This document shows positions 10,053 through 59,131 of a stretch of DNA of 64,000 nucleotides, one piece after another. Each line of letters opens with the position of its first letter. Within the stretch, counting starts at the first letter, position 1. Position numbers and translations under genes: made by a program. The DNA comes from an uncultured Anaerolineales bacterium. GTDB taxonomy: Bacteria > Chloroflexota > Anaerolineae > Anaerolineales > UBA11858. The stretch covers positions 12,187-76,186 of the forward strand of contig CAZRUS010000001.1 of assembly GCA_964603385.1 (NCBI GenBank), in the 5' to 3' direction. The notes below the pieces were generated by a model that ran no database searches, was not told the origin of the DNA, and saw nothing but the letters and a program-made list of their open reading frames with translations.

Positions 10053-10787
10053 CTATCGGATAGAAATATCAGCTTCGAGGGCTGTTATTTCAAATTCTTG
10101 TTGAATTTTTGGCTTTCTCGCAGGGTGAAAATCAATCACCTGGATGCGGTCAACCGGCTGGCTGACTGCCAGGGCCGCCTGATATCCGGCAGCGCTATCC
10201 AGATCAATCAGCTGGAGTCCGGGAAGGGCTGCTGCCATCAACAAGGGATCCCCCCCGGCTTCCTTGAAGATGGTGTTGTGGGCTTTATAGAGGGCTTCTT
10301 TCTGCGCCCAGCTGCGGAAAAATGCTTCCTCCTGTTGCTGTGGATTCAATCTCCGGAAATCTGTTTTTTCCTGGCTGCTGTACCAGCGCCGCTGCATTGC
10401 CTGGTAATCAGCAAGAGGATAATGTTCCTGGATATCGATCCCGACCTGTAGATTCCGGGCAAGAGCACATAGGAAATACTCGCCGGAGTGAGAGAGATTG
10501 AACACAAGGCTTTCCGCTGGAATAAATGGCTTTCCGGTTGGATTCCTTCGAATTTGGATCTCCCCCGGATCTTTGTGGAGCAGACTCCCCAGAATACGGC
10601 GCAGCAGGAACCGGGAGAGCAAAGCTGCCTGACGTGCCCTCTCACTGAGCAGCCGGAGGGCACGATCCTGCTCGGCCTGGCTGAGCAGACTGATCATGGA
10701 GGGGCTCACTGGAAGCCAAGGCTGAAAACTTGTTCGCCAGATGTGGATTTCGTTCTCCCGTGGACCGGGTATTTCAGAGGACGTCAT
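10053..10787 (-). CDS. pfaE: 4'-phosphopantetheinyl transferase, Sfp/PfaE type
   Basis: GKPFI...FNLSHSG... and W.QKEALYKA motifs, 244 aa. Its ATG overlaps the pfaD stop (ATGA). Confidence 0.8.
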   Translation of the reverse strand: MTSSEIPGPRENEIHIWRTSFQPWLPVSPSMISLLSQAEQDRALRLLSERARQAALLSRFLLRRILGSLLHKDPGEIQIRRNPTGKPFIPAESLVFNLSHSGEYFLCALARNLQVGIDIQEHYPLADYQAMQRRWYSSQEKTDFRRLNPQQQEEAFFRSWAQKEALYKAHNTIFKEAGGDPLLMAAALPGLQLIDLDSAAGYQAALAVSQPVDRIQVIDFHPARKPKIQQEFEITALEADISIR

Positions 10788-12400: not shown

Positions 12401-12416
12401 GATGGTGATCCTTTTT

Positions 12417-15400
12417 TCAGCTGTTCTCCCCGATCAAAGCCAGGTTGGAAATCTGGTAAATTCGCAGATCTTCCCGGAGCAAATTCCCATCTCCGGTAAT
12501 CTCCAAACGGCTGCCGGTCTGGTTGACCTCTTTTAGGTGGATCTCAAGTTGAATGCTCTCAACTTCCCGGGTAATCTGTCCCCGGTATTTCCAGCGGATG
12601 ACCTCTTCCGGTTTGAGCCGCCAGTGCACTGGAGATGATTGACCCAGCTGATCAGCTGCAGCCTGAATTGTTTGAGACATCAGCTCCACACCCAGTGAGC
12701 CGGGCATGACCGGATCCTGATGGAAATGGGCTCTGAAAAACCAGGCTTGAGGGTCGATTTTTTCTGCCAGGTAGAGGGATCCAGCCTGATACTCTCCGCC
12801 GGCCGGCGCAAACCAGTAGCGTGTTACCGGAGGCAGGCAGGCCTCTCCTGGTGATAATTCCGGTTTGTCATCAGGAGAAAACCAGCGGCCGGTATCGGGG
12901 TGATTTCGAAAAAAAGTGCTGAATTGACGCCCGCCGTCGATTCCCTTCTGGCGGGATAGCATCCCAGACGGAAAATAGCCAAAGGAGGCTTTCCCGCGGA
13001 AGAACATCCTGCCGCTGGAGGAGAGCTCAAAGTTGTAATGCTGGATGATGGTGCTCTGCAGGGTGCTGGAGGTGGTCAGCTCTACCCGGGTGGAGATCGT
13101 CGAGCCCGGCGGAGGCGGATCAGCGGTTAACTCTGCCTGCCCATCCAGATTCCGGAAGTAATAATCAACCTTTGGGCCGCTGAGGATGGAACCCATGTAT
13201 GCTGAAAGAAAGCCGCAGGGTTGAAGAGCGATCTCCAGCAGGGCAACATAAGGAAGGCTGGAGCGGTTGGGTAGATACCAGGCTTTTTGGGGCAGGTCGT
13301 ATTCAGCCCGCAGGCTTGCTCCCGGCTGCACACGATTGGCTGCGGCATTCAGCTCCACCACTCGGTCAAGAAACTGCATCTTCCCATTGGGGAGCAGGGG
13401 AATCCGCTGCCCGGCAAAGGGGGTGTAGGAGCGCCCAAAACAGGCAGAGGGGTCCCCCAAAGTAAAGGCAGCGATCTGATCGTGGGTGAATAATACTCTC
13501 TTCGAGGGGGACCGGGAGCTATTCTGCAGGGAGGGGGAGGAAACCAGCTCAAGTGCTCGGGACAGGTTCCCGGTCAGGGTTTTCATGCTGGAAAAATAAC
13601 TGCGCTGAGCATTTGCCAATCTGGAGGATTGTCTGGCAAGCACTTCGAAGGGATCTGCAGCGATTTGTTCGCTGTGCGGGTCTGCCTTTGTGGAGGGCTG
13701 CTCAGGAAGCGCTCCCGGAGCGGCCTCCTTGGTTGTGGGCCGCTTCCGGGTCAGTCTCTGGCCAAGTCGTTTCCACTGGGAGACGTCTGATTTCCACCCT
13801 GGTAGCTGCTCCGCAATTAATGGGTCCAGCTGAAGGGGGACCCGGTGGCTGATCAACTGAGCGAGCACGTTCAGGATGCCATCCAGATCCGGTTGATATT
13901 TTTTATTAATGGCACAGACTGCGTGGGGACGATCCTTGAGGATGGCCTCTATCCAGCGAGTGCAGGTTTTTTGGGGGCCAACTTCAATGAACAAGCGGGT
14001 TCCATCCCGGTAAACCTGTTCTACCAAGCGGGGAAAATCAACCCGTCGGCAGATCATGCCTGCCAGTGAGCGGCCGATTTCTTTGGAGTCCGGGGAAAGA
14101 GGTTGATATTCTGCTGCTGAATAAAAATTAATTGCTTCCCCAGGGAAGACGGATTCTGTCAGGAGTTCAACAAACGCAGGGTATTCCCCGGCCATTGCAG
14201 GGTTGTGAATGGATGCCTGAAAGGGCATGGGCAGAGAGCGGCATCCCAGCGCTTTGATCACCCGCTGGCAGGCATTTTGTTCACCGGCAATGACCACCTC
14301 ATCCGGTGTGTTGATGATGGTCAGGAATGCCTTGGGCTCTTTTTCCAGGACGTCAAGGCATTCTTGGGGAGAAGCTTTGAGTATGTAGGAATCCCAGAAG
14401 CCAGCCTCAAATTCTTCAGGGGCCCAATAGTCTCTGACTGCGGTCATCGAACCGAACAGGCGCTCTTTAAAGAGGGCGGATCGCCGCCATTTGAGACTGC
14501 TCTGTTCTCCGTTTCGCCAGATTCCATTGGCCCAGAGCATGCTGATTTCACCCAGGCTGTACCCGAAGGCTGCCCGGGGTTGAAGGGAAAAAACTTCTTT
14601 CAGGATTAAAGTGTGGAGTACAGCCAGACTGGTCCCGGATTCAATTAGATCAATTGGCTGCTTGAAAAAGTGTTCTTGTCGTTCCTCCAGGTCCTTTTTT
14701 GAGAGAGGAGCTAAACTGCGGGGGTAGATCAGGGTCTCCGCCAGCGATTGGCGGATATTTCCGGTCGTTTTTTTAACCATTTCGTGCAGCCCAGGAAAGA
14801 TCTGGAATAACTCTCTGCCCATGCCTGGGTAGCTGTTAAAAGCCCCCGGATAAATCAATGCTGTTCCCTGATCTCCCAGCGGCTGGGGGACAAAACAACT
14901 GCCCGCAGGCGTGGTCAGCTGTTTTCCGGACTTGATGCATCGCTCCAAACCCTTCTGGAGAAGCCTAATTTCTTTCCTGCTCTTTTCCCGGTTCTCTGCC
15001 AGGATGCAGCCCCTCAGCCGGGGGTGTTCTTTTTCAGCCAGGAGCAAGCGCCGGGCAGCCAAGACTTTCAGCGGCTTTCCCTCTTCAATCCCACGTTGCA
15101 ATGCCTGGAGGGATACCTGAATTTCACGCAGCGATTGACCGGAAAACGGCAGAAGTGTCTTGCTTTCCGGAACCATCCCGGTCCGTATCCTGGGAAGGGA
15201 CTTGCGGTGGATGGCTTCCTCCAGCAGGATATCCTGCAGTCCTGCACCAGTAGAGAACAGCACCAGCGACCGGCGGGGAGTTTTTCCATGATCCAGCCAG
15301 GGTCGGGGAGATTCTGGAGCGTAAAAAGGACCGGCAGCAGGAACCCCCTCCAGCCGGGCGCGGAGCGTTTTCGGGAATCCGGGAATGGTCCGTCGGTGCA

Positions 15401-16064
15401 GGGTCAGCACAGCCTGGATAAAACCAGCCATACCGCTGTCAACCTCGATCGAGGTGGATACCCCTCCCAGGGCACAAATTCGATGGGAGGGATCAACCGG
15501 CCAGAGATCGGCCAGCTTTTCCCAGAGGTTTTTGTTGAGGTCTGCGGGATCAGCTGGCATCTGGAGATATTCGGGCGGATATTCTCCCCACTTTGTTGAG
15601 ATGCTTTCCAGGCTGCCATCAGTTTGCGGGTGGATTCCGTCCAGGACCAGACGGGCATAACTCTGCTGGGGGCTGCCAGGCGAGGAGATCACAAAGGCGC
15701 CGACGCCGATTGAATCTGATGCCAGGATCAGCACCTGATGGTGGGGATTTTTGTGCAGAAATACAGCTGCGGTGCTCAGAGCCCCAGGAATGGAAACATC
15801 CCCCGCCTGTTGTTCGAGGATGATGATGTCCTGGTTTTCTGAAAGAAAACGATCGTTCGAATCCCTGGGTTGGATCAGCAGAATCAAAGCGCAGCGATCC
15901 CGGCTGCTGATCCCCGCATCCTCCAGAGCGCTCTCAGCAACCCTGGAAAGCTCCGGAGGTGAGGAAGAGAGCAGGGATTTACCCTGGAAAAGGGCGGTTT
16001 CCAAGGAAGTTAAGGAAGGATGGCTGCCGTACGCTGCAGCCAATCCAGTGATGATCCCATTCAT
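12417..16064 (-). CDS. multidomain PKS/FAS protein: degenerate KS-like (no active-site Cys) + acyltransferase + FabA-type dehydratase region
   Basis: The N-terminus aligns by eye with the KS C-terminal half (RPWL...PRRSLVLFSTGAG) but has no DxACSS. The AT has GYSLGEISMLWANG. The C-terminus has FFRAHFHQDPVMPGSLG (FabA/PfaC DH active site), preceded by a pseudo-DH hot-dog. Confidence 0.85.
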   Translation of the reverse strand: MNGIITGLAAAYGSHPSLTSLETALFQGKSLLSSSPPELSRVAESALEDAGISSRDRCALILLIQPRDSNDRFLSENQDIIILEQQAGDVSIPGALSTAAVFLHKNPHHQVLILASDSIGVGAFVISSPGSPQQSYARLVLDGIHPQTDGSLESISTKWGEYPPEYLQMPADPADLNKNLWEKLADLWPVDPSHRICALGGVSTSIEVDSGMAGFIQAVLTLHRRTIPGFPKTLRARLEGVPAAGPFYAPESPRPWLDHGKTPRRSLVLFSTGAGLQDILLEEAIHRKSLPRIRTGMVPESKTLLPFSGQSLREIQVSLQALQRGIEEGKPLKVLAARRLLLAEKEHPRLRGCILAENREKSRKEIRLLQKGLERCIKSGKQLTTPAGSCFVPQPLGDQGTALIYPGAFNSYPGMGRELFQIFPGLHEMVKKTTGNIRQSLAETLIYPRSLAPLSKKDLEERQEHFFKQPIDLIESGTSLAVLHTLILKEVFSLQPRAAFGYSLGEISMLWANGIWRNGEQSSLKWRRSALFKERLFGSMTAVRDYWAPEEFEAGFWDSYILKASPQECLDVLEKEPKAFLTIINTPDEVVIAGEQNACQRVIKALGCRSLPMPFQASIHNPAMAGEYPAFVELLTESVFPGEAINFYSAAEYQPLSPDSKEIGRSLAGMICRRVDFPRLVEQVYRDGTRLFIEVGPQKTCTRWIEAILKDRPHAVCAINKKYQPDLDGILNVLAQLISHRVPLQLDPLIAEQLPGWKSDVSQWKRLGQRLTRKRPTTKEAAPGALPEQPSTKADPHSEQIAADPFEVLARQSSRLANAQRSYFSSMKTLTGNLSRALELVSSPSLQNSSRSPSKRVLFTHDQIAAFTLGDPSACFGRSYTPFAGQRIPLLPNGKMQFLDRVVELNAAANRVQPGASLRAEYDLPQKAWYLPNRSSLPYVALLEIALQPCGFLSAYMGSILSGPKVDYYFRNLDGQAELTADPPPPGSTISTRVELTTSSTLQSTIIQHYNFELSSSGRMFFRGKASFGYFPSGMLSRQKGIDGGRQFSTFFRNHPDTGRWFSPDDKPELSPGEACLPPVTRYWFAPAGGEYQAGSLYLAEKIDPQAWFFRAHFHQDPVMPGSLGVELMSQTIQAAADQLGQSSPVHWRLKPEEVIRWKYRGQITREVESIQLEIHLKEVNQTGSRLEITGDGNLLREDLRIYQISNLALIGENS

Positions 16065-17806
16065 ACTGCTGCAGACTCCAGTTGGTTTTGACGGAAAAGG
16101 GGCTGCAAACGTTGGCTGAGGGTGATTTCAGCGCCAGCAACCCGGCTGAAAATCCGACCCTGCCTGTCATGGCTGGTGACATCCGCGACCAGGGTATGGC
16201 TGCTGGAAGACCGAACAGTCATGGTGACATAACTGGTTTGTCCAAATTCCAATGGTCGATACTGGGTACCGCCGGCAATCTTCAAGGGCAGACCGACGCT
16301 GCCCTGATACAGGTGAGCCCAGATTAGAAGACTCTGCAGATGGACATCTGCCCAGAAAGGATTGAATGAACGAACAGGAAATTGACCCATCTGCTTTCTT
16401 GTCAACCTGGGAAGATGACAGCGAGTGGTCAGCCCGGCGGGAGAGTGGTTGAGTACTTCTTCCACCCCCTGGAAGCTGGCCCCGTGGAAAAGCGTCTGAT
16501 CTCCGTACAGGCGATCGCCCGGGATGGCTTCACGCTGCTGAAAATCAGCCGCAACAGGCGCTGGAGCCTCTAGTGATGAGCGGCGAAGGGTGATTTCAGC
16601 CTGATAATGCTGCTGTTGTTTTCCGTCCTTGGTTTGACTGCTGATCCGGGCTTCGAGAACCAGTGCCTGTTTTCCCCGTTTGGGGAGGTTTATGTCAAGT
16701 TGATATTCTGCAGATAGATCGTCATTAAAAACAATACCTTTGAAGACGCGGTAATCACTCACTGCAGAAAATTTGTATCCAGGAAAGAGATCTTCACAGC
16801 TGTTAATCATCCAGGCGACGGCACAGACAGTTGGGAGGACTGCCTGCCCACCAATGACATGATCCACCAGGAAAGGATTCTCAACCAGGGAAAGCTGCCG
16901 GTAGATCCGGAAGCTGTCCGGTGGATTTTCCAGCCCATGATCTGAAACAGGCAGCGGACTCCCCACCACCCACTGCGGTTGGTGAGGAACATTTCCAGAC
17001 AGCAGGTGGATCAGGGTTTCAGGTCCTTCTTGCTTGGAGATCAGGCCAACATTTTTTCTTTTCAGGATTCGCCTCAGCTGAGGGCTGACCATCCCGCCGT
17101 CCCAGGGGCCCCAGTTGATAGAGAGCACCTGGATGTCTGGCTGAGTGCGCTGAAGGTAATGGGCAAATTTATTGAGCACTTCATTGCTCAGGCTGTAATC
17201 CGCCTGGCCGGGGTTGCCATAGTAGGCCGCTACTGAGGAAAACAGCACCAGGTGCTGTAGATTAATCCGGGGAATGATTTCCAGCAGGTTCATTAATCCA
17301 TCTACTTTAACCCCGTAAACCAGTTCAAAATCCTTTTCCTGTTTATCCTGGAGATGTTTATCGGCCAATGCTCCGGCGCCGTGGATTATGCCTGTGATTT
17401 GATCAGCGATCGGGGAGAGCACTTCGCGCAGGTTGTCCAGATTCCGGATGTCTGCCTGAAGATAGATTGCCTGACCGCCTGCGAGCTGGATCTTTTCCAG
17501 CGTCCGCTGGATTTCCCGGCTGGATAACACCGCTCCGACCAGATGATCCAGTTCTTTCGGGGTAAGTTTGCCATGCTGAGAGTGATTAGCCTTGAGCGCA
17601 TTCTGCTTGAGCTCAGTCTCTTCCCATACACCTTCAGCCCAGGAGGGTTCCTCATCTAGAAGGGCTGAGCGGCCGAAGAGAGTCAGCCGGCAATGGAAGA
17701 CTGATGCCAGGGCGACTGCACAATCAGCAGTGATGCCTTTCCCTCCTCCACTGATCAGAAAATTGCTCTCGGAATCTGGCGTGGGGTTCGTAGAAGCCTT
17801 TGACAT
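16061..17806 (-). CDS. ketoreductase + PKS-type dehydratase (PfaA C-terminal equivalent)
   Basis: ISGGGKGITADCA Rossmann motif, YGNPGQADYSLSNE KR catalytic region, then LVDHVIGGQAVLP (HxxxGxxxxP PS-DH motif). It overlaps the next ORF by 4 nt (ATGA). Confidence 0.85.
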   Translation of the reverse strand: MSKASTNPTPDSESNFLISGGGKGITADCAVALASVFHCRLTLFGRSALLDEEPSWAEGVWEETELKQNALKANHSQHGKLTPKELDHLVGAVLSSREIQRTLEKIQLAGGQAIYLQADIRNLDNLREVLSPIADQITGIIHGAGALADKHLQDKQEKDFELVYGVKVDGLMNLLEIIPRINLQHLVLFSSVAAYYGNPGQADYSLSNEVLNKFAHYLQRTQPDIQVLSINWGPWDGGMVSPQLRRILKRKNVGLISKQEGPETLIHLLSGNVPHQPQWVVGSPLPVSDHGLENPPDSFRIYRQLSLVENPFLVDHVIGGQAVLPTVCAVAWMINSCEDLFPGYKFSAVSDYRVFKGIVFNDDLSAEYQLDINLPKRGKQALVLEARISSQTKDGKQQQHYQAEITLRRSSLEAPAPVAADFQQREAIPGDRLYGDQTLFHGASFQGVEEVLNHSPAGLTTRCHLPRLTRKQMGQFPVRSFNPFWADVHLQSLLIWAHLYQGSVGLPLKIAGGTQYRPLEFGQTSYVTMTVRSSSSHTLVADVTSHDRQGRIFSRVAGAEITLSQRLQPLFRQNQLESAAV

Positions 17807-17809
17807 GTT

Positions 17810-18502
17810 TTATCCCTTACCCAGAGTCAGGGTCACTCGGGACTGCCTGCTGAGTCCAACTTCCAGAAGATCATGGCGGGGATCATGCAGCTCCCGGATG
17901 ACAAAGGCCGCTTTCTCTTCCGCCTTCATGGAGGGGTCGAGATCAATGTATCTGCAAAAAACGTCCGGTACTTCCCGATAAAATGTTTTTACCAGACCGC
18001 TCAAACCGCCGCCTTCCTGGAAAGAACCTGCTGCTGAGGTACCCAGCCTTCCATCTAACTGGGTGATTGTCAGAAAAAATTTTCTACCTGGAGGCTGATT
18101 TTCCGTTTCTTTGAAATGCTGTGCCAGAAATTTTGCCAGGAAAAAGGTCATTTTTACTATGCCGCGGTCTCTCGCCTGGGAAAAAGCCAGCGGGTGTAAG
18201 TGAATAATTCCGGCAAAATCTCCCACCCTTTCAGCTTCCCTGGACAGCTGCTGCTGCATATCATCTGGATCCTCACTGTCGATCCTCAACCGGGAGAGGT
18301 CTGTCGGAAGCTCACGGGGATCTTCACTCAGGTACGGTGTTTGCACCAGCTGCAGCGGCCAGCCAACGTTTTGCAAAGCCTCAGCAAACTGAAGCGTGAA
18401 TTTGCTGCCGTCGTCGGTTACCAGCAGAGGATGAACAGGGTTGATCTCCAGCTCCAGACGATCAGGCCGGGGAAGATCCCTCAACTGTACCGGATTTGCC
18501 AT
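17810..18502 (-). CDS. probable KR structural (pseudo-KR) subdomain / linker protein of the split PfaA module
   Basis: 230 aa with no catalytic motif. By position it corresponds to the region between the ACPs and the KR in PfaA. It is in the same frame as the KR-DH ORF, separated only by TAA-AAC-ATG. Confidence 0.5.
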   Translation of the reverse strand: MANPVQLRDLPRPDRLELEINPVHPLLVTDDGSKFTLQFAEALQNVGWPLQLVQTPYLSEDPRELPTDLSRLRIDSEDPDDMQQQLSREAERVGDFAGIIHLHPLAFSQARDRGIVKMTFFLAKFLAQHFKETENQPPGRKFFLTITQLDGRLGTSAAGSFQEGGGLSGLVKTFYREVPDVFCRYIDLDPSMKAEEKAAFVIRELHDPRHDLLEVGLSRQSRVTLTLGKG

Positions 18503-19860
18503 CAGCTTTGAGGCTTTTTTTTTTCTTCTACCGGCTGCAGATGGGATCGTTCCCTCATAAGCGTGATGATCTCATCTAATGTGCGCATTTCTCCCAGGAG
18601 GTCTCCATCCACCGGAGGAAGGTCCGGGAAATGATCTTCTACCGCGCCGAGAATCTCCACCCGCTTGATGGAGTCGATTCCCAGGTCGGCTTCCATATCC
18701 ATTGATGTTTCCAGCATTTCCACAGGGTAGCCGGTTTTTTCGGCCACCGTTTCCAGCAGAAAGGCAGCGAGGTCCAAATTATCTGTCAAAGGCTCTTCCG
18801 CCTGTGGATCAACCTCCTCCGGCCCTGGAATTGGATCCGGCATCGGGGTTTCCGCCGGGGGTGTTTCCAGGTCCACTGGAGGGTCGGTCTCCAGCAGATT
18901 CTCCGCTGTTTTCAGGTAAACAATGATGTCTTCCAGGGTGCGGGATTCAGCCAGAATTTCTGTATCTGCAGGAGGAAGCTCCGGGTAGCGGTCTTCCAGC
19001 GCTCCCAGGATTTCGACTCTCTTGATGGAGTCAATACCCAGATCTGCTTCCATATCCATGGTCAGATCAAGCATTTCAGCCGGGTAGCCGGTTTTCTCAG
19101 CGACAATCTCCAGCAGGGAGCTGTTGATCTCTTCGAGATGGAAAGCTGATTGAAGAACGGGCGATGAAGTCATGAGCTGGGAACTGCGGACGGAAGACTG
19201 GATTTCCGGTCGGGGGGACTGCCCTGGTTGAAGAGGTTGCTCATCCACCTGATCAGCAGCGGAGGATGGGAGCGGAGATTCCAGAGCGGATGAAGGGGGG
19301 GGAAAGGAATCGGAGCCGGAAGACAGCTTGCTACCATCTAGCTGCTGGTACTGCTCTGTCAGCAAGGTCACGAAAGCGTGGGAATATTCCGCCTGATAGT
19401 GCAGGAACTGCTGATGAACCTCCAGTTCTTTTTCTTGCAGGCGATGAAAACCAGCCAGACTGTCCTGAATGACTTCCAGGGAATGGGCGCTGGCCGCGCC
19501 GCTGCCGTTTTCCAGCACCACTGCCTGCTGATCCAGAAGACCCTGGAAGATGCCCTGAAATTCTCTCAGCTGGGTCAGGTACTGCTGGTGGATATCCACT
19601 GTTCTCCGCTGATGATCAACGGCATGCTGGACACCCTGCTGAATGATTTCCAGCTGGGCACTGGGCTGCCTATCCGGCTTGCTGGGGAGAACGCTGGGCG
19701 GTAATGAGGACATCCTGGATCCATTTCCAGAGGATGTTTGCAGATATTTTGCCGGACTGGTCTGGATTTTGCGGCCGTCAGCCAGCGCTTCCTGAAATGC
19801 TCGCTTGCGTTCCGCAGGGGTGTAATTGCTGCCGTTGAGGGGAATCTGTAATTTAGCCAT
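18502..19860 (-). CDS. tandem acyl carrier protein (2 x ACP) with an N-terminal Q/H-rich domain of about 235 aa and unknown function
   Basis: Two copies of EADLGIDSIKRVEILGA (PUFA-synthase-type phosphopantetheine site) separated by a Pro/Glu-rich linker. The stop overlaps the next ATG (ATGA). Confidence 0.85.
   Translation of the reverse strand: MAKLQIPLNGSNYTPAERKRAFQEALADGRKIQTSPAKYLQTSSGNGSRMSSLPPSVLPSKPDRQPSAQLEIIQQGVQHAVDHQRRTVDIHQQYLTQLREFQGIFQGLLDQQAVVLENGSGAASAHSLEVIQDSLAGFHRLQEKELEVHQQFLHYQAEYSHAFVTLLTEQYQQLDGSKLSSGSDSFPPPSSALESPLPSSAADQVDEQPLQPGQSPRPEIQSSVRSSQLMTSSPVLQSAFHLEEINSSLLEIVAEKTGYPAEMLDLTMDMEADLGIDSIKRVEILGALEDRYPELPPADTEILAESRTLEDIIVYLKTAENLLETDPPVDLETPPAETPMPDPIPGPEEVDPQAEEPLTDNLDLAAFLLETVAEKTGYPVEMLETSMDMEADLGIDSIKRVEILGAVEDHFPDLPPVDGDLLGEMRTLDEIITLMRERSHLQPVEEKKKPQS
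18556..19125 (-). repeat. internal tandem duplication encoding ACP1 (about 18913-19125) and ACP2 (about 18556-18768)
   Basis: The two segments of about 210 nt align by eye at the DNA level (e.g. cttgatggagtc[g/a]at[t/a]ccca...gcttccatatccat...gggtagccggtttt). Confidence 0.7.
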
Positions 19861-19871
19861 AGCTGTACCCT

Positions 19872-22676
19872 TTATTTTGCATTCATGTAGATCTCAGGAG
19901 CGGGAGCAGTGGTTTTTGAGTAAGGATCAAAGCCGTTCAGTGGCAGACCGATCACCCGCAGTTTGGCGACTGCCTGCCGCAGCTGAAGGTCCGAGGACTT
20001 CTCCCTGCTGGGATTCAGAGAGACGGCATCATGGGGACGATCTGCCAGGATGTCCCTGACCAGGTTGCCCAGTACCTGTCGCGGTCCCACCTCCACAAAT
20101 ACCCGCACCCCGGATTGATAAAGCGCTTCTATCTGGGATTTGAAGATCACCGGATGGAGGATGTGTTGGGAGAGGATTTCCCTGACTGCAGTTTTATTTT
20201 CTGGGTAGGGCTTTCCCGTTGTGTTCGAAAATACCGGAATCGTTGCTGGATGAAAGTCTTCTTTGGCAACTGCAGCTGAGAAGGGTTGGGAGGCGTGTTC
20301 TACCAGCGGTGTGTGAAAGGCTGCAGAAACCGGCAGCCGGGTGAATTTAATTCCTTGACTGCTGAAATGATCCTCAGCCCGGGTGATGGAATCACTGGGG
20401 CCGGCCAGCACCATCTGGTCAGGCGAGTTCTCGTTGGCAATCACCAGATCAGGAAAACTGGATATTTCAGCTGCAATTAATGAATAGGGTGCTTTCACTG
20501 CAGCCATGGCGCCGGCATCAAAATCTGGGTTTTCCGGGGGACGCATGGCCTCTCCGCGGGCCTTGACAAGCCGGAGGAAAGCGGAATCATCCAGGACACC
20601 GGACGCCCAGAGAGCGGTTAATTCACCAAAGCTGTGACCAGCGGTAAAATCCGGCTGAAATCCTGCCTGCAGGAGGAGCTGATAAAGGCCGCAGCTGATC
20701 ACACCAATCGCAGCCTGGGCGTAATCGGTTTCCCGGAGAGATTTTTTCTGATTCAGCAGGGAGGTTTGAGTATAGGCCGGGGCAGGATATAAAACTTCTG
20801 AAAGAGGTTTCTGACCTGCCTCGGCAAACAGCAGATCCATGGCCTCGATCACTTCTCGCAGCGGGGGGAAATTGATTACTGCTTCCTGGAGCATTTGCAA
20901 GTACTGGGATCCCTGCCCGGGGAAGAGGGCGGCAATTTTTGCCTGGTTATCCAGACTCTGGGAACGGTAGGTAATTCCTCTGGGGTGATCCCACCCCGGG
21001 GAATCAGGATCTTTGTCCAGCAGCTCTGCCGCCGTTTCCAGATATGCTGCCGTTTCGGCTGCACTCCGGGCCACAAAGCCCACTCTGGGTTGATCAGCAG
21101 GCGGATTCCCCTGACGGCTCTTGTTGCACAACCTCTGGAAGGCACCTTCAGATCGGTCGTTTTTGAGCCCAGGGATCAGCTGCTGAATCTGCTCCCGCAT
21201 TGCTTTGGAGGTGGGAGCCGAGAGCAGGATGGTTTCTGCTGTCGGAGCCAGCCTGCTTCCAGGTCCTTGCGGATGGGGATTTTCTTCCAGGACAAGGTGA
21301 AAGTTGGTCCCTCCGAAACCGAAAGCACTGACCGCTGCCCTGCGGGGCTGCTGGTCAGTCCTGGAAAACCAGGGCCGGGCCTGATTATTGATATAGAAAA
21401 GGCTATCCTCGAGTTGCAAATCTTCCGCTGGCTGGGAAACGTTGATGGTGGGCGGCAGCACTTTTTGATCCAGCGCCAGAGCTGCTTTGATCATCCCGGC
21501 TGCGCCCGCGGCTGCCTTGGTGTGTCCGATCTGGGATTTGACCGAGCCAATTGCAATTGTTTGTCCTTTTCCGTTGGGAGGTCCAAAAACTGCGTTTAAT
21601 CCTGTGATTTCTGCTGGGTCCCCGGCTTTTGTACCCGTTCCGTGGGCTTCGATCAGACCGATGCTTCTGGGATCGATATCGGCATCCCGGTAAGCTCGCT
21701 GGACAGCCAGCGATTGTCCGGCGGGCCTGGGAGCATAAATGCTTTTGAATTTGCCATCGCTCGAGCTGCCAATCCCGCGGATAACTGCATAGATATGATC
21801 GCCATCCCGTTTGGCATCCTCCAGGCGCTTCAGGATCACCATGCCGAGTCCCTCCCCTATCAGCATGCCGTCCGATGATTGATCAAAAGGGCGGATTTCC
21901 TGGGAGGGGGAAAAGGCAGGTGTTTTGCTGAAACATAAGTACGTGAATGGGGAGTTGTCGGTGTCCACCCCGCCGGTGATCATCAGATCCGCCCGGCCTT
22001 CCAGCAGTTCCGACAGGGCCATTTTTACCGCCGCCAGACTGCTGGCACACGCAGCATCGACTACTGCGTTGATTCCACCCAGATCCAACCGGTTGGCGAT
22101 CCGACCGGCGATCACGTTCCCCAGCAGACCAGGAAAGGAGTTTTCATTCCAGGGGGCATAGGCAAGTTTGATCTTTTCGATAATCATCTCCGTGTCTTCT
22201 GTGGAAAGACCGCTGCTAATCAGCACCCTTCTCCAGATTGGATACTGCAGGCGTGCGCTGAGATCAGAGATCAGCTTTTGTCCTCCGGCAACACCAAGCA
22301 CCACACCAGTCCGGGAGCGGTCAAATTCCCGTTCCGCTCCATACCCGGCATCCTCCATGGCGTCACGGGCAACAACCAGACCCAGCAGCTGCGAGGAATC
22401 GGTCACCTCAAGCAGATTGGGCGGCAAACCGAACTCCAGCGGATCAAAATCAATATCCGGGATAAATCCCCCTCGTTTGCAGTAGGTTTTATCCTCTGCT
22501 TGAGGATCGGGATGGTAATAATCATTCACCCTCCAGCGGTCCTCTGGGACATCGGTGATGCAGTCAATCTTGTTAATTATGTTTTCCCAGTATGACCGTA
22601 GATCAGGAGATCGGGCAAAAACCGCAGCCTGACCAATTACCGCAACAGGAGTTTTTTGTAAAGAACCGGGGTTCAT
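19872..22676 (-). CDS. pfaA: beta-ketoacyl synthase + malonyl-CoA:ACP acyltransferase (PfaA N-terminal equivalent)
   Basis: KS motifs VDAACASSLAAV, EAHGTGT and GSVKSQIGHTKAAAG. The AT has GHSFGELTALWASG. 934 aa. Confidence 0.9.
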   Translation of the reverse strand: MNPGSLQKTPVAVIGQAAVFARSPDLRSYWENIINKIDCITDVPEDRWRVNDYYHPDPQAEDKTYCKRGGFIPDIDFDPLEFGLPPNLLEVTDSSQLLGLVVARDAMEDAGYGAEREFDRSRTGVVLGVAGGQKLISDLSARLQYPIWRRVLISSGLSTEDTEMIIEKIKLAYAPWNENSFPGLLGNVIAGRIANRLDLGGINAVVDAACASSLAAVKMALSELLEGRADLMITGGVDTDNSPFTYLCFSKTPAFSPSQEIRPFDQSSDGMLIGEGLGMVILKRLEDAKRDGDHIYAVIRGIGSSSDGKFKSIYAPRPAGQSLAVQRAYRDADIDPRSIGLIEAHGTGTKAGDPAEITGLNAVFGPPNGKGQTIAIGSVKSQIGHTKAAAGAAGMIKAALALDQKVLPPTINVSQPAEDLQLEDSLFYINNQARPWFSRTDQQPRRAAVSAFGFGGTNFHLVLEENPHPQGPGSRLAPTAETILLSAPTSKAMREQIQQLIPGLKNDRSEGAFQRLCNKSRQGNPPADQPRVGFVARSAAETAAYLETAAELLDKDPDSPGWDHPRGITYRSQSLDNQAKIAALFPGQGSQYLQMLQEAVINFPPLREVIEAMDLLFAEAGQKPLSEVLYPAPAYTQTSLLNQKKSLRETDYAQAAIGVISCGLYQLLLQAGFQPDFTAGHSFGELTALWASGVLDDSAFLRLVKARGEAMRPPENPDFDAGAMAAVKAPYSLIAAEISSFPDLVIANENSPDQMVLAGPSDSITRAEDHFSSQGIKFTRLPVSAAFHTPLVEHASQPFSAAVAKEDFHPATIPVFSNTTGKPYPENKTAVREILSQHILHPVIFKSQIEALYQSGVRVFVEVGPRQVLGNLVRDILADRPHDAVSLNPSREKSSDLQLRQAVAKLRVIGLPLNGFDPYSKTTAPAPEIYMNAK

Positions 22677-27100: not shown

Positions 27101-27862
27101 ATGAGGAATAATCGCTGGTTCCGGATCTTTTTTAGTGTCATGCTGGCTGTAATCATGGTTGGGGCAGCAGGCTTTCTGATCTGGGCTTTGAATCCCCCGG
27201 CGATAGAGCCGGAAGCCCAAACCGCCCTTGAGTCTCTGGACACCAGCCGGCTGGAACGGGGGAAGGGGCTGGTCTTTTCTCCGCCCGAAGGGATCTCCAG
27301 GGTCGGTTTGATCCTCTACCCCGGCGGGCGGGTCCAGCCCGAAGCCTACGCCCCCTTGGCAGAGGCTATCGCGGACCGTGGGTATCTGACAATCATCCCC
27401 CGGATGAGGCTAAACCTGGCCGTGCTAGAAATTCAGGCGGCTGATGAGGTTCTGGCTGCCTATCCGGAAGTGGATCGCTGGGTGATCGGCGGTCATTCCC
27501 TGGGCGGCGCCATGGCGGCTGAATATGCCGCGGATCAACCGGAGAATGTTCAGGGGTTGGTTCTCTATGCCGCCTATCCTGCCGATAGCACGGATTTATC
27601 GGAACGCGATCTGGAGGTGCTTTCCATCTATGGCACCCGGGATGGGCTGGCTTCGATGGAGGAGGTACTCGCCTCGGCGGATCGTCTGCCTGAGGACACG
27701 GTCTGGGTGGAGATTAAAGGGGGGAATCATGCCGGGTTTGGCTGGTACGGACCTCAACGGGGGGATTTCCCGGCCACCATCCCAAAAGGGGAACAGCAAC
27801 TTCAGATTTTGGAGGCAACAGCGGATTTTTTATCGCACCTGGGAGGGCAAAATGGGCACTAA
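27101..27862 (+). CDS. membrane-anchored alpha/beta hydrolase
   Basis: N-terminal TM helix and GGHSLGGAMAAEYA nucleophile elbow. Start trimmed to ATG 27101, because the longer track ORF overlaps the carboxyltransferase gene. Confidence 0.65.
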   Translation: MRNNRWFRIFFSVMLAVIMVGAAGFLIWALNPPAIEPEAQTALESLDTSRLERGKGLVFSPPEGISRVGLILYPGGRVQPEAYAPLAEAIADRGYLTIIPRMRLNLAVLEIQAADEVLAAYPEVDRWVIGGHSLGGAMAAEYAADQPENVQGLVLYAAYPADSTDLSERDLEVLSIYGTRDGLASMEEVLASADRLPEDTVWVEIKGGNHAGFGWYGPQRGDFPATIPKGEQQLQILEATADFLSHLGGQNGH

Positions 27863-28319
27863 AGTAGACATCAATACGCCAGCGCCAGATTTCAATCTGA
27901 AGGATTGGCAGGGCAGGGAAATCAAGCTGTCAGATTTCCGGGGGGAGAAGGTCGTCCTGCTGGTCTTCAACCGGGGTTTTGGTTGACCGTTCTGCCAGGC
28001 CCATATGGCGCAGTTGCGCCGTGATTATCAGAAATTCCAGCAGGCAGATGTGGAGATCCTGGTTGTTGGGCCGGAGGGGGAAAAGGCTTTCCGGCGGTAC
28101 TGGCAGAAACATGAGCTGCCCTTTATCGGACTGCCTGATCCAGAGCATAGTGTGCTGAAGCGCTACGGACAGGAGGTTAACCTTTTCAAGCTGGGCCGGA
28201 TGCCGGCCATGATGGTTGTGGACTGCCAGGGATTGGCCCGCTTTGTGCATTACGGGCATTCCATGCAGGACATCCCTGACAATGAGCAGGTTCTTTCCCT
28301 GATCAAGGAGATCCGCTGA
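27852..28319 (+). CDS. peroxiredoxin/redoxin-like (AhpC/TSA-Bcp type) protein with in-frame TGA 27984-27986: candidate selenoprotein (U-P-F-C)
   Basis: Track ORFs 27525..27986 and 28005..28319 share one frame. Read-through gives a 155-aa thioredoxin-fold protein: PAPDFNLKDWQGREIKLSDFRGEKVVLLVFNRGFG-U-PFCQAHMAQL. RBS GGGAGGG precedes ATG 27852. Confidence 0.7.
28007..28020 (+). promoter_or_regulatory. candidate bacterial SECIS hairpin for the redoxin gene
   Basis: GGCGC-AGUU-GCGCC, extendable by U-G/A-U/U-G pairs. It starts 20 nt after the TGA and has G and U in the apical loop. Confidence 0.35.
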
Positions 28320-40516: not shown

Positions 40517-40753
40517 GTTGCACCCGCGGGCAGGGCAGACACAGCAAGTGCAGAAAGAATATTTCTTCATCCCGGCCGGGCGGCGTGCGGGCATTTCCTG
40601 CCGTTGAGGAGAGGAAGTTCGGGATTCAGGCGCCGGATGAGGAAGAATGTCAGGCACAAAGGGATGAGTTCTCTCACTTCCTGCAGGGGAAAAGATGGTA
40701 AGATAAGGGATGCCTTAACAATCAGCCCGAAAAGAATTCAGGAATACCATAAG

Positions 40754-41410
40754 ATGATGGAGACGAAGACCGAGATCAGCGAAAACATACAGATGTACCT
40801 GGTGAATATCTTTCGGCTCAGGGAGGGGGATAAGCCGGTGCCGGTGCCGGCCCTGGTGGAGGAAATGGGGATCACCTCCGCCTCTGTCAATGAGATGTGC
40901 CGAAAGCTGGAAAAAGCTGGATTTATTGATTATATTCCCTATTCCGGCGTGGAGCTGACCTCCATGGGGCTGGAACAAGCCCGTTCGGTTCTCCGCAAGC
41001 ATCGTCTCTGGGAAGTATTCCTGGTCGGCAAACTGGGCTATGAACACGAAGAAGCTCATCAGACAGCCTGCCAGCTGGAACATGCCACGCCGGATAAACT
41101 GGCTGATCTGCTGGAGGAGTATTTAGAAAGGCCGCCTGTCAATCCTGCCGGGGAGCCAATCCCGGGCAGCTGGCGGGAGGACGGGGGTCCCCTGGTCCGG
41201 ACGCTGTTAACGCTGAATCCAGGGATGACGGCCAGGATTTCCCATATCAGCGGACAAGGACCAGAACAGGCGTTTTTGGAGAAAAACGGACTGCGTTCTG
41301 GAGCGGACATCACCCTGCTTGCCGGCGATGAGGGCAGTTATCTGGTGCTGGTTGGGGAGAAGAGGATCACGCTGGCCAAGGATGTGGCAGGATTGGTTTA
41401 TATCCGCTGA
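40754..41410 (+). CDS. DtxR/MntR-family metal-dependent transcriptional regulator with C-terminal FeoA/SH3-like domain
   Basis: MYLVNIFRL..., a winged-helix region (LVEEMGITSASVNEMCRKLEKAGFIDY), LRKHRLWEVFL, and HQTACQLEH metal-site residues. Start trimmed to ATG 40754. Confidence 0.8.
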   Translation: MMETKTEISENIQMYLVNIFRLREGDKPVPVPALVEEMGITSASVNEMCRKLEKAGFIDYIPYSGVELTSMGLEQARSVLRKHRLWEVFLVGKLGYEHEEAHQTACQLEHATPDKLADLLEEYLERPPVNPAGEPIPGSWREDGGPLVRTLLTLNPGMTARISHISGQGPEQAFLEKNGLRSGADITLLAGDEGSYLVLVGEKRITLAKDVAGLVYIR

Positions 41411-41449
41411 GGAGCTCAGCGGTAAAAGCCTGTTAAGGAACGGAGGATA

Positions 41450-41677
41450 ATGAGATTAATTGACGCTGCAGACAACACCGTAGTAGAAATAACCGGTTTT
41501 ATTGGCGGGAAGGGGATTGCTGATAAGCTCCGGCAGCTGAGCTTGATGCCGGGGGATGAGGTGAAAATCACCCAGCGGGCCCCGTTTCGGGGGCCGGTGA
41601 TGGTCGAAGCACATGGCCGTTCGGTAGCGCTGGGTCGGGGGGTTGCCTCCCGGATTGAGGTGATCCCATGCGAATAG
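41450..41677 (+). CDS. feoA: ferrous iron transport protein FeoA
   Basis: 75-aa SH3-like protein (..KLRQLSLMPGDEVKI...) directly upstream of feoB and overlapping it. Confidence 0.8.
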   Translation: MRLIDAADNTVVEITGFIGGKGIADKLRQLSLMPGDEVKITQRAPFRGPVMVEAHGRSVALGRGVASRIEVIPCE

Positions 41678-49278: not shown

Positions 49279-49307
49279 TTCGAGTTCCTCTTTGCTGGAA
49301 ATGGTGG

Positions 49308-50327: not shown

Positions 50328-50344
50328 TGTCTGCTTCTCCTCTG

Positions 50345-51028: not shown

Positions 51029-51082
51029 GGCTGTCTCCTCATCGTTCCGGAATGTCCGGAGAGAATGGACCTTCCCCAGCTG

Positions 51083-51505
51083 TCATGGAGAGGTTCGCAG
51101 TGGATTGGGTCCCAGGTTCTTGATTTCTTTACTGATCTCCTCCGCTTTGGTGACAAATTCACCGGCCATAGCAGCGGAGACGTTGATCATCTGTGCGCGT
51201 GCTGGTTCAATCCCGATCTCCCCAAGAATCTCCTGCAGTCTGTTCACTCTTCTTTTTGCGTTGGTATTACCTTCCAGGTAATGGCAATCTCCGGGCAGTC
51301 AACCGGCGACCATCACCCCATCTGCTCCCTCTTCGAATGCGTGCAGGGCCAGCAGGATGTCCAGCTTGCCTGTGCAGGGGATTTCCACGATTTTGATGGT
51401 GGTGGGATACTGCAGTCTCAAGCCGCCAGCCAGGTCCGCTGCAGCATAGGCACAGTGCGTGCAGCAGTAGGACAGAATCTGTATCTTGCTGCAGTTTTCT
51501 TTCAC
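51083..51505 (-). CDS. mvhD: MvhD/FlpD-like [2Fe-2S] electron-transfer protein with in-frame TGA (51301-51299): candidate selenoprotein
   Basis: The track ORF ends ...EEGADGVMVAG-TGA. The same frame continues LPGDCHYLEGNTNAKRRV... to TGA 51085-51083, giving a 140-aa MvhD-sized protein. The TGA replaces the Cys of the GC.xGDCHY motif. The GTG start overlaps the hdrA stop (GTGA). Confidence 0.75.
51266..51282 (-). promoter_or_regulatory. candidate bacterial SECIS hairpin for mvhD
   Basis: Minus strand AUUACC-UGGAA-GGUAAU, starting 16 nt after the UGA, with G-rich apical loop. Confidence 0.35.
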
Positions 51506-56130: not shown

Positions 56131-56226
56131 TGTCGTTTCTCCCTCAAACACCAATAGAAATTACTGACTGCTGCAGGAAGGCGTCAACGATGCGCTGATA
56201 AATCCACCATTCAAAGCTGAAGAAAG

Positions 56227-59118: not shown

Positions 59119-59131
59119 AGTAAATTTCTCC

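What the first reader, a model, noticed from the sequence alone, without database searches (positions are those of the whole stretch)
27852..28319. Candidate selenoprotein: redoxin/peroxiredoxin-like gene with TGA at the first redox-Cys position (U-P-F-C)
The ORF track splits one gene into 27525..27986 and 28005..28319, which share a frame. Starting at ATG 27852 (RBS GGGAGGG) and reading through TGA 27984-27986 gives a 155-codon thioredoxin-fold protein: ...GEKVVLLVFNRGFG-[TGA]-PFCQAHMAQLRRDY.... In AhpC/TSA/redoxin proteins this position carries the CxxC/peroxidatic Cys ((W/F/G)-C-P-x-C), so the stop sits exactly at the catalytic residue. A GC hairpin GGCGC-AGUU-GCGCC (28007-28020) begins 20 nt downstream, with G/U in the loop. 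That is the approximate geometry of bacterial SECIS elements. The gene overlaps the preceding membrane-anchored alpha/beta hydrolase gene by 11 nt, suggesting a hydrolase/redoxin pair.
Basis: partly seen in the sequence, partly recalled or inferred. Interest (0 to 1): 0.7.

Follow-up and report, generated by a model that had tools for sequence, protein, structure and literature searches.

The report
Selenocysteine redoxin gene with conserved SECIS
The apparent stop codon inside this small redox-enzyme gene is almost certainly read as selenocysteine, which makes it a real but ordinary member of a known selenoprotein class that gene callers routinely cut in two.

Summary
ATG 27852 to TGA 28319 is one 155-codon gene with an in-frame TGA at 27984-27986. 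Read through, it is an AhpC-TSA/Redoxin-fold protein with the motif FNRGFG-U-PFC.

- All 80 homologous loci recovered from different species carry TGA at the same column. Most are Anaerolineae; some are Syntrophia.
- True Cys forms (TGC/TGT) also exist.
- The hairpin 28006-28021 (loop AGUU) sits in a stretch that is invariant at the nucleotide level, including synonymous sites. It shows two compensatory changes and meets every published bacterial SECIS criterion.
- The hairpin decays in 3 of 6 Cys forms and in 0 of 81 Sec forms.

The window also holds a second selenoprotein gene, MvhD, on the minus strand at 51505-51083. Its TGA aligns with the Sec of a solved VhuD. This is indirect evidence that the organism decodes Sec. 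The genes selA, selB, selD and tRNA-Sec are not in the window and could not be checked.

Sec aligns with the first Cys of a ResA-type CxxC, which is the Thr column of peroxiredoxins; the peroxidatic-Cys column is Cys48. The hydrolase/redoxin pairing is weakly conserved.

The gene belongs to the known class of Prx-like UxxC selenoproteins, so it is a new member of a known kind.

The parts
27841..27847 (+). Shine-Dalgarno-like GGGAGGG, 4 nt upstream of the start codon
   Evidence: Read directly from the sequence.
27852..28319 (+). Complete selenoprotein gene: 155 codons plus a terminal TGA. It encodes a Prx-like (BCP-fold) redoxin with a U45-P-F-C48 redox centre.
   Evidence: Translation. Pfam PF00578 E 2e-24 and PF08534 E 5e-18. 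The N-terminus aligns with full-length homologues. An AF2 model of the Cys orthologue P0007 has pLDDT 91 and TM 0.87-0.89 to BCP structures.
27984..27986 (+). In-frame UGA, read as selenocysteine (residue 45)
   Evidence: TGA occupies this column in 80 of 80 related loci. Cys forms carry TGC/TGT. The column aligns with the N-terminal Cys of the ResA CxxC and with the Thr of the Prx TxxC.
27993..27995 (+). TGC codon for Cys48, the resolving partner of Sec. This is the column of the peroxiredoxin peroxidatic Cys.
   Evidence: PDB alignments. The residue is invariant, and the codon is TGC in 80 of 81 sequences.
28004..28023 (+). Bacterial SECIS hairpin. The conserved 6-bp core is 28006-28011 with 28016-28021, and the apical loop AGUU is 28012-28015. 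In this window two more pairs extend it to 28004/28023.
   Evidence: RNAalifold consensus and pair counts, including GC63/GU16/UA1/AU1 at one pair. Energy -12 kcal/mol. Codons GCG, CAG and TTG are frozen in 79/79, 81/81 and 81/81 sequences, against 22%, 63% and 18.5% elsewhere in the same genes. The element meets all four bSECIS criteria of PMC13188914.
27101..27862 (+). Upstream alpha/beta hydrolase (Abhydrolase_5) with an N-terminal hydrophobic segment. It overlaps the redoxin start by 11 nt. This is context only; it is not a conserved partner.
   Evidence: Pfam PF12695 E 2e-57. Gene call in L081. Adjacency is conserved only in L001 and L008.
51083..51505 (-). Second selenoprotein gene in the window: MvhD/VhuD-type subunit with an in-frame TGA at 51301-51299 (GADGVMVAG-U-LPGDCHY). 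It is independent evidence that this organism decodes Sec.
   Evidence: Translation. Pfam FlpD E 4e-45. NCBIfam VhuD E 2e-43. The protein aligns over its full length with solved MvhD chains, and the VhuD chain 9sfi_K has X (Sec) at exactly this column. A hairpin AUUACCU-GGA-AGGUAAU lies downstream.

Best explanation
This is one intact gene for a cytoplasmic selenoprotein. It has a peroxiredoxin-like (BCP-fold) thioredoxin-superfamily scaffold and a selenol/thiol redox pair, Sec45-Pro-Phe-Cys48.

During translation, the UGA at 27984-27986 is recoded to selenocysteine. The mRNA hairpin 20-25 nt downstream (core 28006-28021, loop AGUU) acts as a bacterial SECIS. It recruits SelB-GTP carrying Sec-tRNA(Sec) to the ribosome. 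The gene's own terminal UGA at 28317 has no such element and terminates translation.

The mechanism below is inferred from family chemistry and was not shown here. Sec45 occupies the nucleophilic N-terminal position of a CxxC-type site. It attacks an oxidised substrate (a disulfide, sulfenate or hydroperoxide) and then forms an intramolecular selenenylsulfide with Cys48. A thioredoxin-type reductant re-reduces that bond. The most likely physiological role is oxidative-stress defence or repair.

Shown here:
- gene continuity and fold;
- the Sec/Cys pair;
- the conserved SECIS;
- a second Sec gene in the window.

Inferred:
- actual Sec insertion;
- the substrate;
- the reductant.
For: 1. All 80 homologous loci from different species genomes have TGA at the same column, in FNRGFx-U-P[FY]C. 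In the protein database, 46 of the top 120 clusters are truncated at the Met just after the TGA. A further 61 carry 'W' at that column. The one W cluster whose DNA was checked (P0003, loci L084 and L085) has TGA there, so it was translated with genetic code 4.
2. True Cys forms exist, with TGC/TGT.
3. The stretch CAYATGGCGCAGTTGCG is invariant in 81 sequences. Of 48 conserved-residue columns, only Cys+3, Ala+8 (GCG), Gln+9 (CAG) and Leu+10 (TTG) have frozen synonymous sites.
4. In the consensus hairpin, 87.5% of cells are paired, against 53% or less when the partners are slid. Two sequences carry compensatory changes: L007 has U-A and L032 has A-U.
5. The element meets the bSECIS model: 4-nt loop, G at loop position 2 followed by U, 6-8 bp stem, 25 nt from UGA to the loop, -12 kcal/mol.
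6. The core hairpin is broken in 3 of 6 Cys forms and in 0 of 81 Sec forms (Fisher p 1.9e-4).
7. Sec aligns with the nucleophilic Cys of ResA, and Cys48 aligns with the Prx peroxidatic Cys.
8. A second Sec-type gene, MvhD, lies in the same window. Its TGA aligns with the Sec of a solved VhuD.
9. The same TGA appears in an independent assembly.
10. Sec use in Chloroflexota is documented (PMC1794560; PMC13582414).
Against: - No selA, selB, selD or tRNA-Sec was found in the 64-kb window. A motif scan of 1.3 Mb of related loci found none, and ARAGORN found no tRNA-Sec in the 60 loci it was run on. The decoding machinery of this genome is therefore unverified.
- The three innermost stem pairs never vary, so they give no covariation evidence. 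Part of the HMAQLR conservation is also a protein constraint, because Cys forms mostly keep the peptide.
- Single-sequence folding of the wider region is not significant (z -0.6).
- No experimental evidence (75Se labelling or MS) exists for this family, as far as the searched literature shows.
Confidence: 0.93

Rival explanations
1. Pseudogene or sequencing/assembly error. A TGC/TGT Cys codon was mutated or misread to TGA, and the gene is dead or the stop is artefactual.
For: A single-base change would produce TGA. Rare TTA (L091) and CGA (L092) variants at this column show that single-base variants occur in metagenome contigs.
Against: TGA occupies the same column in 80 of 80 species-level genomes and in many metagenome contigs. 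The same sequence is present in an independent assembly. Both halves are under strong protein-level conservation. The nucleotide-level freeze lies exactly downstream of the TGA.
Confidence: 0.02
2. UGA is reassigned genome-wide (genetic code 4 or 25) and encodes Trp or Gly here. This matches the 'W' seen in many database translations.
For: In the top 120 database clusters, 61 show W at this column.
Against: The W cluster whose DNA was checked (P0003, loci L084 and L085) carries TGA and does not translate to its database entry under code 11, so it was called with code 4. The redoxin gene, the MvhD gene and the HdrA-like gene all terminate at TGA in this window. Homologues have Cys at this column, not Trp or Gly. 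A localised RNA hairpin would be unnecessary under a reassigned code.
Confidence: 0.01
3. The UGA really terminates translation. The locus makes a 44-residue peptide and, separately, a 104-residue protein started at ATG 28005, as gene callers annotate it.
For: Gene callers predict exactly these two ORFs. An ATG lies 18 nt after the TGA.
Against: The split would cut a single thioredoxin-fold domain between beta-strand 3 and the active-site helix, removing the redox motif from the C-terminal part. The ATG at 28005 is the invariant Met of HMAQLR inside the hairpin, and no ribosome-binding site precedes it. Cys forms are single ORFs.
Confidence: 0.03
4. A functional rival within the selenoprotein reading. 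The enzyme is a true peroxidase that reduces hydroperoxides directly at the selenol, as GPx or Sec-peroxiredoxins do. It is not a general thiol:disulfide oxidoreductase.
For: The overall fold is closest to BCP/AhpE peroxiredoxins (TM 0.85-0.89), ahead of ResA (0.72-0.77). Selenols react fast with peroxides (established chemistry). In 50 of 80 related loci the gene sits among photolyase, CarH-like MerR/B12, DUF1295, SDR and DegV genes, which suggests a photo-oxidative-stress setting.
Against: The Prx catalytic Thr and Arg are absent. U45 occupies the Thr column and the invariant Pro118 occupies the Arg column, as the cis-Pro does in ResA/TlpA-type proteins. The motif is UxxC, not the TxxU of known Sec-peroxiredoxins (PMC13188914).
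Confidence: 0.3

Closest known systems
Prx-like thiol:disulfide oxidoreductase selenoproteins, also called 'Prx-like 1' (pfam00578, UxxC). They were predicted by Kryukov & Gladyshev 2004 and are listed in PMC13188914, PMC1794560 and PMC2398784.
   Same: Pfam PF00578 domain. UxxC motif with Sec at the first position. In-frame UGA with a downstream bSECIS. Cys homologues exist. Found in Syntrophus-type Deltaproteobacteria, which also carry this family.
   Different: Orthology to the reference sequence (WP_010940744.1, Geobacter) could not be tested. This clade is centred on Anaerolineae and is almost entirely in the Sec form. Its SECIS is identical across phyla.
NCBIfam NF040769, SelL-related redox protein
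   Same: It is the best-scoring curated model for the window protein and for all 68 family members tested. The match covers the N-terminal ~100 residues, including the redox motif.
   Different: The scores are 73-82 bits against a cutoff of 120, and only positions 2-99 of the 173-position model are matched. The window protein is therefore a sister group, not a member.
BCP/PrxQ and AhpE peroxiredoxins (for example 3hjp, 3drn, 2ywn, 1xvw)
   Same: Same overall fold (TM 0.85-0.89). Cys48 sits at the peroxidatic-Cys column.
   Different: The Prx Thr is replaced by Sec, the Prx Arg by the invariant Pro118, and the Prx Pro by the invariant Arg41 (by position, from the alignment). The redox motif is of the CxxC type.
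ResA/TlpA-type thiol-disulfide oxidoreductases (for example 1st9, 3c71)
   Same: The CxxC aligns column for column with U-P-F-C (WCPHC against GUPFC). The position of the conserved Pro fits a cis-Pro loop.
   Different: ResA and TlpA are membrane-anchored extracytoplasmic proteins. This protein starts directly with the soluble domain and has no N-terminal hydrophobic segment. Structural similarity is lower than to BCP.

Membership tests
Bacterial selenoprotein gene (generic criteria) | In-frame UGA aligned with Cys in homologues (Sec/Cys pair) | tested here: met
   TGA occupies the same column in 80 of 80 loci. TGC/TGT is found in L082, L083 and L086-L090.
Bacterial selenoprotein gene (generic criteria) | bSECIS: 3-9 nt apical loop, 4-16 bp stem, G in the first two loop positions, 16-37 nt from UGA to the loop, MFE <= -7.5 kcal/mol (PMC13188914) | tested here: met
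   Loop AGUU, 6-8 bp stem, 25 nt spacing, -12 kcal/mol. The element is conserved, with compensatory changes.
Bacterial selenoprotein gene (generic criteria) | Genome encodes selA, selB, selD and tRNA-Sec | not testable with these tools
   None is in the 64-kb window. A motif scan of 1.3 Mb of related loci found none, and ARAGORN found no tRNA-Sec in 60 of those loci. Indirect support comes from a second Sec-type gene, MvhD, in the window.
Bacterial selenoprotein gene (generic criteria) | Selenium physically incorporated (75Se labelling or MS) | not testable with these tools
   Requires an experiment.
Prx-like thiol:disulfide oxidoreductase / Prx-like 1 selenoproteins | pfam00578 (AhpC-TSA) domain | tested here: met
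   PF00578, 86.2 bits, E 2e-24.
Prx-like thiol:disulfide oxidoreductase / Prx-like 1 selenoproteins | UxxC redox motif | tested here: met
   U45-P-F-C48. The motif is invariant in the family.
Prx-like thiol:disulfide oxidoreductase / Prx-like 1 selenoproteins | Orthology to the reference members (for example WP_010940744.1) | not tested
   The reference sequence could not be retrieved with these tools.
NCBIfam NF040769, SelL-related redox protein | Score at or above the curated cutoff (120 bits) | tested here: not met
   78.9 bits for the window protein. All 68 members tested are below the cutoff, with a best E of 2e-23.
Canonical peroxiredoxin (BCP/PrxQ) | Catalytic PxxxTxxC motif plus the conserved Arg | tested here: not met
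   The Thr column holds Sec45 and the Arg column holds Pro118. Only the Cys (C48) is kept (alignments to 2ywn and 5enu). By position, the Pro column holds Arg41.
Canonical peroxiredoxin (BCP/PrxQ) | Prx fold | tested here: met
   The AF2 model of the Cys orthologue has pLDDT 91 and TM 0.87-0.89 to Bcp1, Bcp4 and AhpE.
ResA/TlpA thiol-disulfide oxidoreductases | CxxC aligned with the family's active site | tested here: met
   WCPHC of ResA aligns with G-U-PFC.
ResA/TlpA thiol-disulfide oxidoreductases | N-terminal membrane anchor or export signal | tested here: not met
   The N-terminus MGTKVDINTPAPDF is hydrophilic and aligns with the start of the soluble domain. This was judged by inspection; no signal-peptide predictor was run.
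MvhD/VhuD selenoprotein (second gene, 51505-51083, minus strand) | FlpD domain with UGA at the Cys/Sec ligand column | tested here: met
   PF02662 E 4e-45. The TGA aligns with Cys of 7bkb_F and 5odc_D and with X (Sec) of 9sfi_K.

The most novel reading that the evidence does not exclude
The Anaerolineae/Syntrophia clade to which this gene belongs may be a distinct selenoprotein subfamily that no curated model covers. No NCBIfam model reaches its cutoff, and database entries are truncated or carry a spurious Trp. The clade is almost obligately Sec-containing, and its SECIS is identical in sequence across several phyla. In most genomes the gene sits in a CarH-like (MerR/B12), photolyase, DUF1295, SDR and DegV cluster. 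That setting would imply a selenium-dependent arm of a light- or photo-oxidative-stress response in largely non-phototrophic Chloroflexota.
Probability: 0.3. Interest if true: 0.45.

Novelty: new member of a known kind. Interest (0 to 1): 0.3.

Why it matters
For annotation: this gene and hundreds of orthologues are filed in databases in three wrong ways. Some are 103-113-residue fragments, some are 'hypothetical proteins', and some are full-length proteins with a false Trp. At least 453 species genomes hit in the scan encode a relative, and all 80 loci examined carry the TGA. Recognising the Sec codon restores the active site.

For biology: the gene adds a well-supported selenoprotein to Anaerolineae. 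Together with the MvhD gene, it shows that the source organism very probably has the Sec-decoding trait. The extremely conserved SECIS, with 3 of 6 Cys-form derivatives already decaying, is a clean natural example of an RNA signal constraining synonymous sites.

It does not change what is known about selenoproteins. UxxC Prx-like selenoproteins have been catalogued since 2004-2008.

Tried and rejected
- The Rfam gathering scan of the window found only three tRNAs and no SECIS-type family.
- ARAGORN found no tRNA-Sec in the window or in 60 related loci.
- The AIRS-domain protein at 56694-57755 (minus strand) was suspected to be SelD. It is HypE (TIGR02124, 444 bits), flanked by HypD and HypF.
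- Motif scans for SelA (SGDKLLGGPQ-like), SelD (GUGCK-like) and SelB (GHVDHGKT) in 1.3 Mb of loci plus the window found nothing.
- Pfam scans of most large ORFs in the window found no sel genes.
- I tried to name the source record through the carboxyltransferase protein. No exact match is on record. The best relative is an uncultured Anaerolineales MAG (L001), with 70% identity for the redoxin and conserved synteny.
- The hydrolase-redoxin operon idea was rejected as a general rule.
- The long-range pairing in the 86-nt MFE structure (UCUGCC with GGCAGA) was rejected. It is absent from the RNAalifold consensus structure.
- The second and third large protein searches and the metagenome scan were deliberately not used. 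The question was settled without them.
Full report
**Observation.**
- ORFs 27525..27986 and 28005..28319 are in one frame.
- From ATG 27852, which is preceded by GGGAGGG at 27841-47, the frame runs to TGA 28317-19 with a single in-frame TGA at 27984-86.
- The 155-residue read-through is MGTKVDINTPAPDF...FNRGFG-[TGA]-PFCQAHMAQLRRDY....
- The upstream alpha/beta hydrolase (Abhydrolase_5, E 2e-57) ends at 27862. This gives the stated 11-nt overlap.
- With Cys substituted for the stop, Pfam gives AhpC-TSA (E 2e-24) and Redoxin (E 5e-18) across the whole length. The TGA therefore interrupts a single domain.

**Is the TGA real and conserved?**
A search of about 5.8 billion proteins found 5,663 relatives. 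The top 120 fall into telling classes.
- 46 clusters are 103-113 residues long and start at the Met of MAQLR, just after the TGA. These are truncated gene calls, often on long contigs.
- 61 clusters are full-length with 'W' at the TGA column, all on short contigs.
- About 9 have Cys, 2 have Arg and 1 has Leu.

The DNA of a W form (P0003, loci L084 and L085) has TGA at that column and does not translate to the database entry under code 11. The W there is an artefact of code-4 gene calling.

A scan of one genome per species (GTDB) found at least 453 species with a relative. In the best 80 loci, the codon at this column is TGA in 80 of 80. Most of these are Anaerolineae or other Chloroflexota, including the cultured Longilinea arvoryzae KOME-1 and Leptolinea sp. 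HRD-7. Others are Syntrophaceae/Smithella and scattered MAGs of other phyla.

An independent Logan assembly (SRR7048227) carries the identical gene with the same TGA. True Cys forms carry TGC or TGT. This is the classical Sec/Cys-pair signature.

**The RNA element.**
I aligned 75 nt around the TGA from 81 sequences (A2). The stretch CAYATGGCGCAGTTGCG is invariant, while the flanks vary freely.

RNAalifold predicts a 6-bp stem with the loop AGUU. In window coordinates the stem is 28006-28011 with 28016-28021 and the loop is 28012-28015.
- One pair shows GC 63, GU 16, UA 1 and AU 1. In L007, Ala became Ser (TCG) and the partner Arg codon became CGA. In L032, Ala became Thr (ACG) and the partner is CGT. 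These are two compensatory double changes.
- With the stem extended by two pairs, 87.5% of cells pair, against 53% or less when the partners are slid.

A codon-level test gave the clearest result. Among 48 columns with a conserved amino acid, third positions are saturated everywhere, with the top codon at 0.3-0.8. There are four exceptions.

| Column | Codon | Frequency | Elsewhere in the same genes |
|---|---|---|---|
| Cys +3 | TGC | 80/81 | not computed |
| Ala +8 | GCG | 79/79 | 22% |
| Gln +9 | CAG | 81/81 | 63% |
| Leu +10 | TTG | 81/81 | 18.5% |

The window hairpin folds at -12 kcal/mol, and 1 of 200 shuffles does as well. Folding of the wider region alone is unremarkable.

The published bacterial SECIS model requires a 3-9 nt loop, a 4-16 bp stem, a G in the first two loop positions, 16-37 nt from UGA to the loop, and an MFE of -7.5 kcal/mol or lower (PMC13188914). 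All four criteria are met: loop AGUU, 6-8 bp stem, 25 nt spacing, -12 kcal/mol.

As a control, I examined the DNA of six Cys forms. Three keep the hairpin and three break it: TTA in L087, CGA in L088 and AGT...CTC in L090. That is 3 of 6 broken, against 0 of 81 Sec forms (Fisher p 1.9e-4). The nucleotide constraint is therefore tied to the presence of UGA.

**Does this organism decode Sec?**
No selA, selB, selD or tRNA-Sec lies in the window. A motif scan of 1.3 Mb of related loci found none, and ARAGORN found no tRNA-Sec in the 60 loci it was run on. The rest of the genome is out of reach.

A systematic scan for TGA-interrupted frames did find a second case, on the minus strand at 51505-51083.
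- The gene is of the MvhD/FlpD type (PF02662, E 4e-45). Its TGA at 51301-51299 lies in GADGVMVAG-[TGA]-LPGDCHY.
- It aligns end to end with solved MvhD/VhuD chains. The column is Cys in 7bkb_F and 5odc_D, and X (Sec) in the VhuD chain 9sfi_K.
- MvhD/VhuD is an experimentally verified selenoprotein family (PMC13188914).
- A hairpin with a G-rich loop follows the TGA.

So two independent genes in one window have UGA at known Sec/Cys redox columns, and both genes terminate at a second UGA. This argues strongly for SECIS-dependent Sec decoding and against a reassigned code. Sec use in Chloroflexota is also on record (PMC1794560; PMC13582414).

**What kind of enzyme is it?**
PDB sequence alignments place residues as follows.
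- Sec45 sits on the N-terminal Cys of the ResA CxxC (WCPHC). The same column is the Thr of the peroxiredoxin TxxC motif (TQVC in 2ywn, TPGC in 5enu).
- Cys48 sits on the peroxidatic Cys.
- The invariant Pro118 sits on the catalytic Arg of Prx, where ResA/TlpA-type proteins have their cis-Pro. That last point is established knowledge of the thioredoxin-fold suprafamily, recalled rather than tested here.

An AF2 model of the Cys orthologue P0007 (pLDDT 91) is closest to BCP/AhpE peroxiredoxins (TM 0.85-0.89). ResA scores lower, at 0.72-0.77.

The protein therefore has a Prx scaffold with a thioredoxin-type U-x-x-C centre and lacks the Prx Thr and Arg. It has no N-terminal hydrophobic segment, so it is probably cytoplasmic.

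The likely cycle is inferred, not shown. The selenolate attacks an oxidised substrate, a Sec45-Cys48 selenenylsulfide forms, and a thioredoxin-type reductant reduces it.

**Context.**
The hydrolase/redoxin pairing is not general. A homologue of this hydrolase lies within 10 kb in 9 of 80 loci and is directly adjacent only in L001 and L008. A different alpha/beta hydrolase lies upstream in another 10-14 loci.

In 50 of 80 loci the redoxin instead sits among a recurring gene set:

| Neighbour | Loci |
|---|---|
| DUF4345 | 35 |
| DUF1295 | 31 |
| DegV | 30 |
| MerR/B12-binding (CarH-like) | 27 |
| DNA photolyase | 25 |
| DUF1475 | 24 |
| MFS transporter | 20 |
| DUF3159 | 19 |
| SDR | 17 |

Photolyase and the CarH-like regulator co-occur in 21 loci. 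This hints at a light- or oxidative-stress role. None of these genes is in the present window. Here the gene lies between an acyl-CoA carboxylase/hydrolase block and a convergent mutY.

**Comparison with what is known.**
UxxC selenoproteins with a pfam00578 domain are long catalogued as 'Prx-like thiol:disulfide oxidoreductase' or 'Prx-like 1'. They are reported in Syntrophus, Geobacter, Desulfotalea and marine metagenomes (PMC13188914, PMC1794560, PMC2398784).

The best curated model is NCBIfam NF040769 (SelL-related redox protein). It scores only 73-82 bits against a cutoff of 120 for the window protein and all 68 relatives tested. This clade is therefore a sister group without a dedicated curated model. 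That plausibly explains why public records truncate it.

**Verdict.**
- The finding is correct and the selenoprotein reading is very likely true (about 0.93).
- It is a new member of a known kind, with modest scientific surprise.
- Its main value lies in correcting annotation and in flagging the source organism as a Sec user.

Noticed in passing
window 47848-56154 (minus strand): A gene cluster of the acetogen-type methylene-THF reductase complex. It comprises a 1,550-aa HdrA-like/GltD-like fusion (51505-56154), the Sec-type MvhD (51505-51083, TGA at 51301-51299), MetV-like DUF5981 (50348-51028), MetF/MTHFR (49311-50327) and a CCG/4Fe-4S HdrCB-like protein (47848-49386). The MvhD start GTG overlaps the HdrA stop (GTGA).
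   Followed up: partly
protein database hits P0001-P0075; loci L084 and L085: About half of the top database entries for this family carry Trp at the Sec column. The cluster whose DNA was checked (P0003) has TGA there, so it was translated with genetic code 4. All the W entries come from short metagenome contigs. This looks like a systematic artefact that disguises selenoprotein genes as full-length 'normal' proteins.
   Followed up: yes
L001-L080, about +/-5 kb around the redoxin gene: In 50 of 80 related genomes the Sec-redoxin is embedded in a recurring set of genes: DUF4345, DUF1295, DegV, a MerR/B12-binding (CarH-like) regulator, DNA photolyase, DUF1475, SDR, DUF3159 and an MFS transporter. 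Photolyase and the CarH-like regulator co-occur in 21 loci. This suggests a light- or photo-oxidative-stress gene cluster. None of these genes is in the present window.
   Followed up: partly
L091 (ERZ23486368 contig) and L092 (JGI 3300057056 contig): Rare alleles have TTA (Leu) or CGA (Arg) in place of the Sec TGA, with the SECIS hairpin fully intact. They are either recent inactivating mutations or sequencing/assembly errors. Each differs from TGA by a single base.
   Followed up: partly
window 27987-27995 and alignment A2 columns 10-19: Between the UGA and the hairpin, the base after UGA is always C (Pro CCN), and the Cys48 codon is TGC in 80 of 81 sequences. This is an extra nucleotide-level constraint outside the predicted stem, and no explanation was tested.
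   Followed up: no
P0067, P0069, P0071, P0073-P0075 (database proteins): A second subfamily, FLRGFM-W(=TGA?)-PYCRAQLARLR, has a different peptide downstream of the presumed Sec. It therefore presumably has a different SECIS sequence. Its DNA was not examined.
   Followed up: no
window 10787-22676 (minus strand): A Pfa-type polyunsaturated-fatty-acid/polyketide synthase cluster. The genes are KS-AT (19875-22676), a tandem PP-binding protein (18505-19860), KR-DH (16064-17806), a FabA-like protein (12420-16064) and a PfaD-like enoyl reductase (10790-12400).
   Followed up: partly
window 56694-61534 (minus strand): [NiFe]-hydrogenase maturation genes hypE, hypD and hypF lie directly upstream of the HdrA/MvhD cluster. 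HypE was first suspected to be SelD because of its AIRS domains, but it is clearly HypE (444 bits).
   Followed up: yes
window 40604-43596 (plus strand): An iron-uptake pair: a DtxR-type repressor fused to a FeoA domain (40604-41407), followed by FeoB (41668-43596).
   Followed up: no
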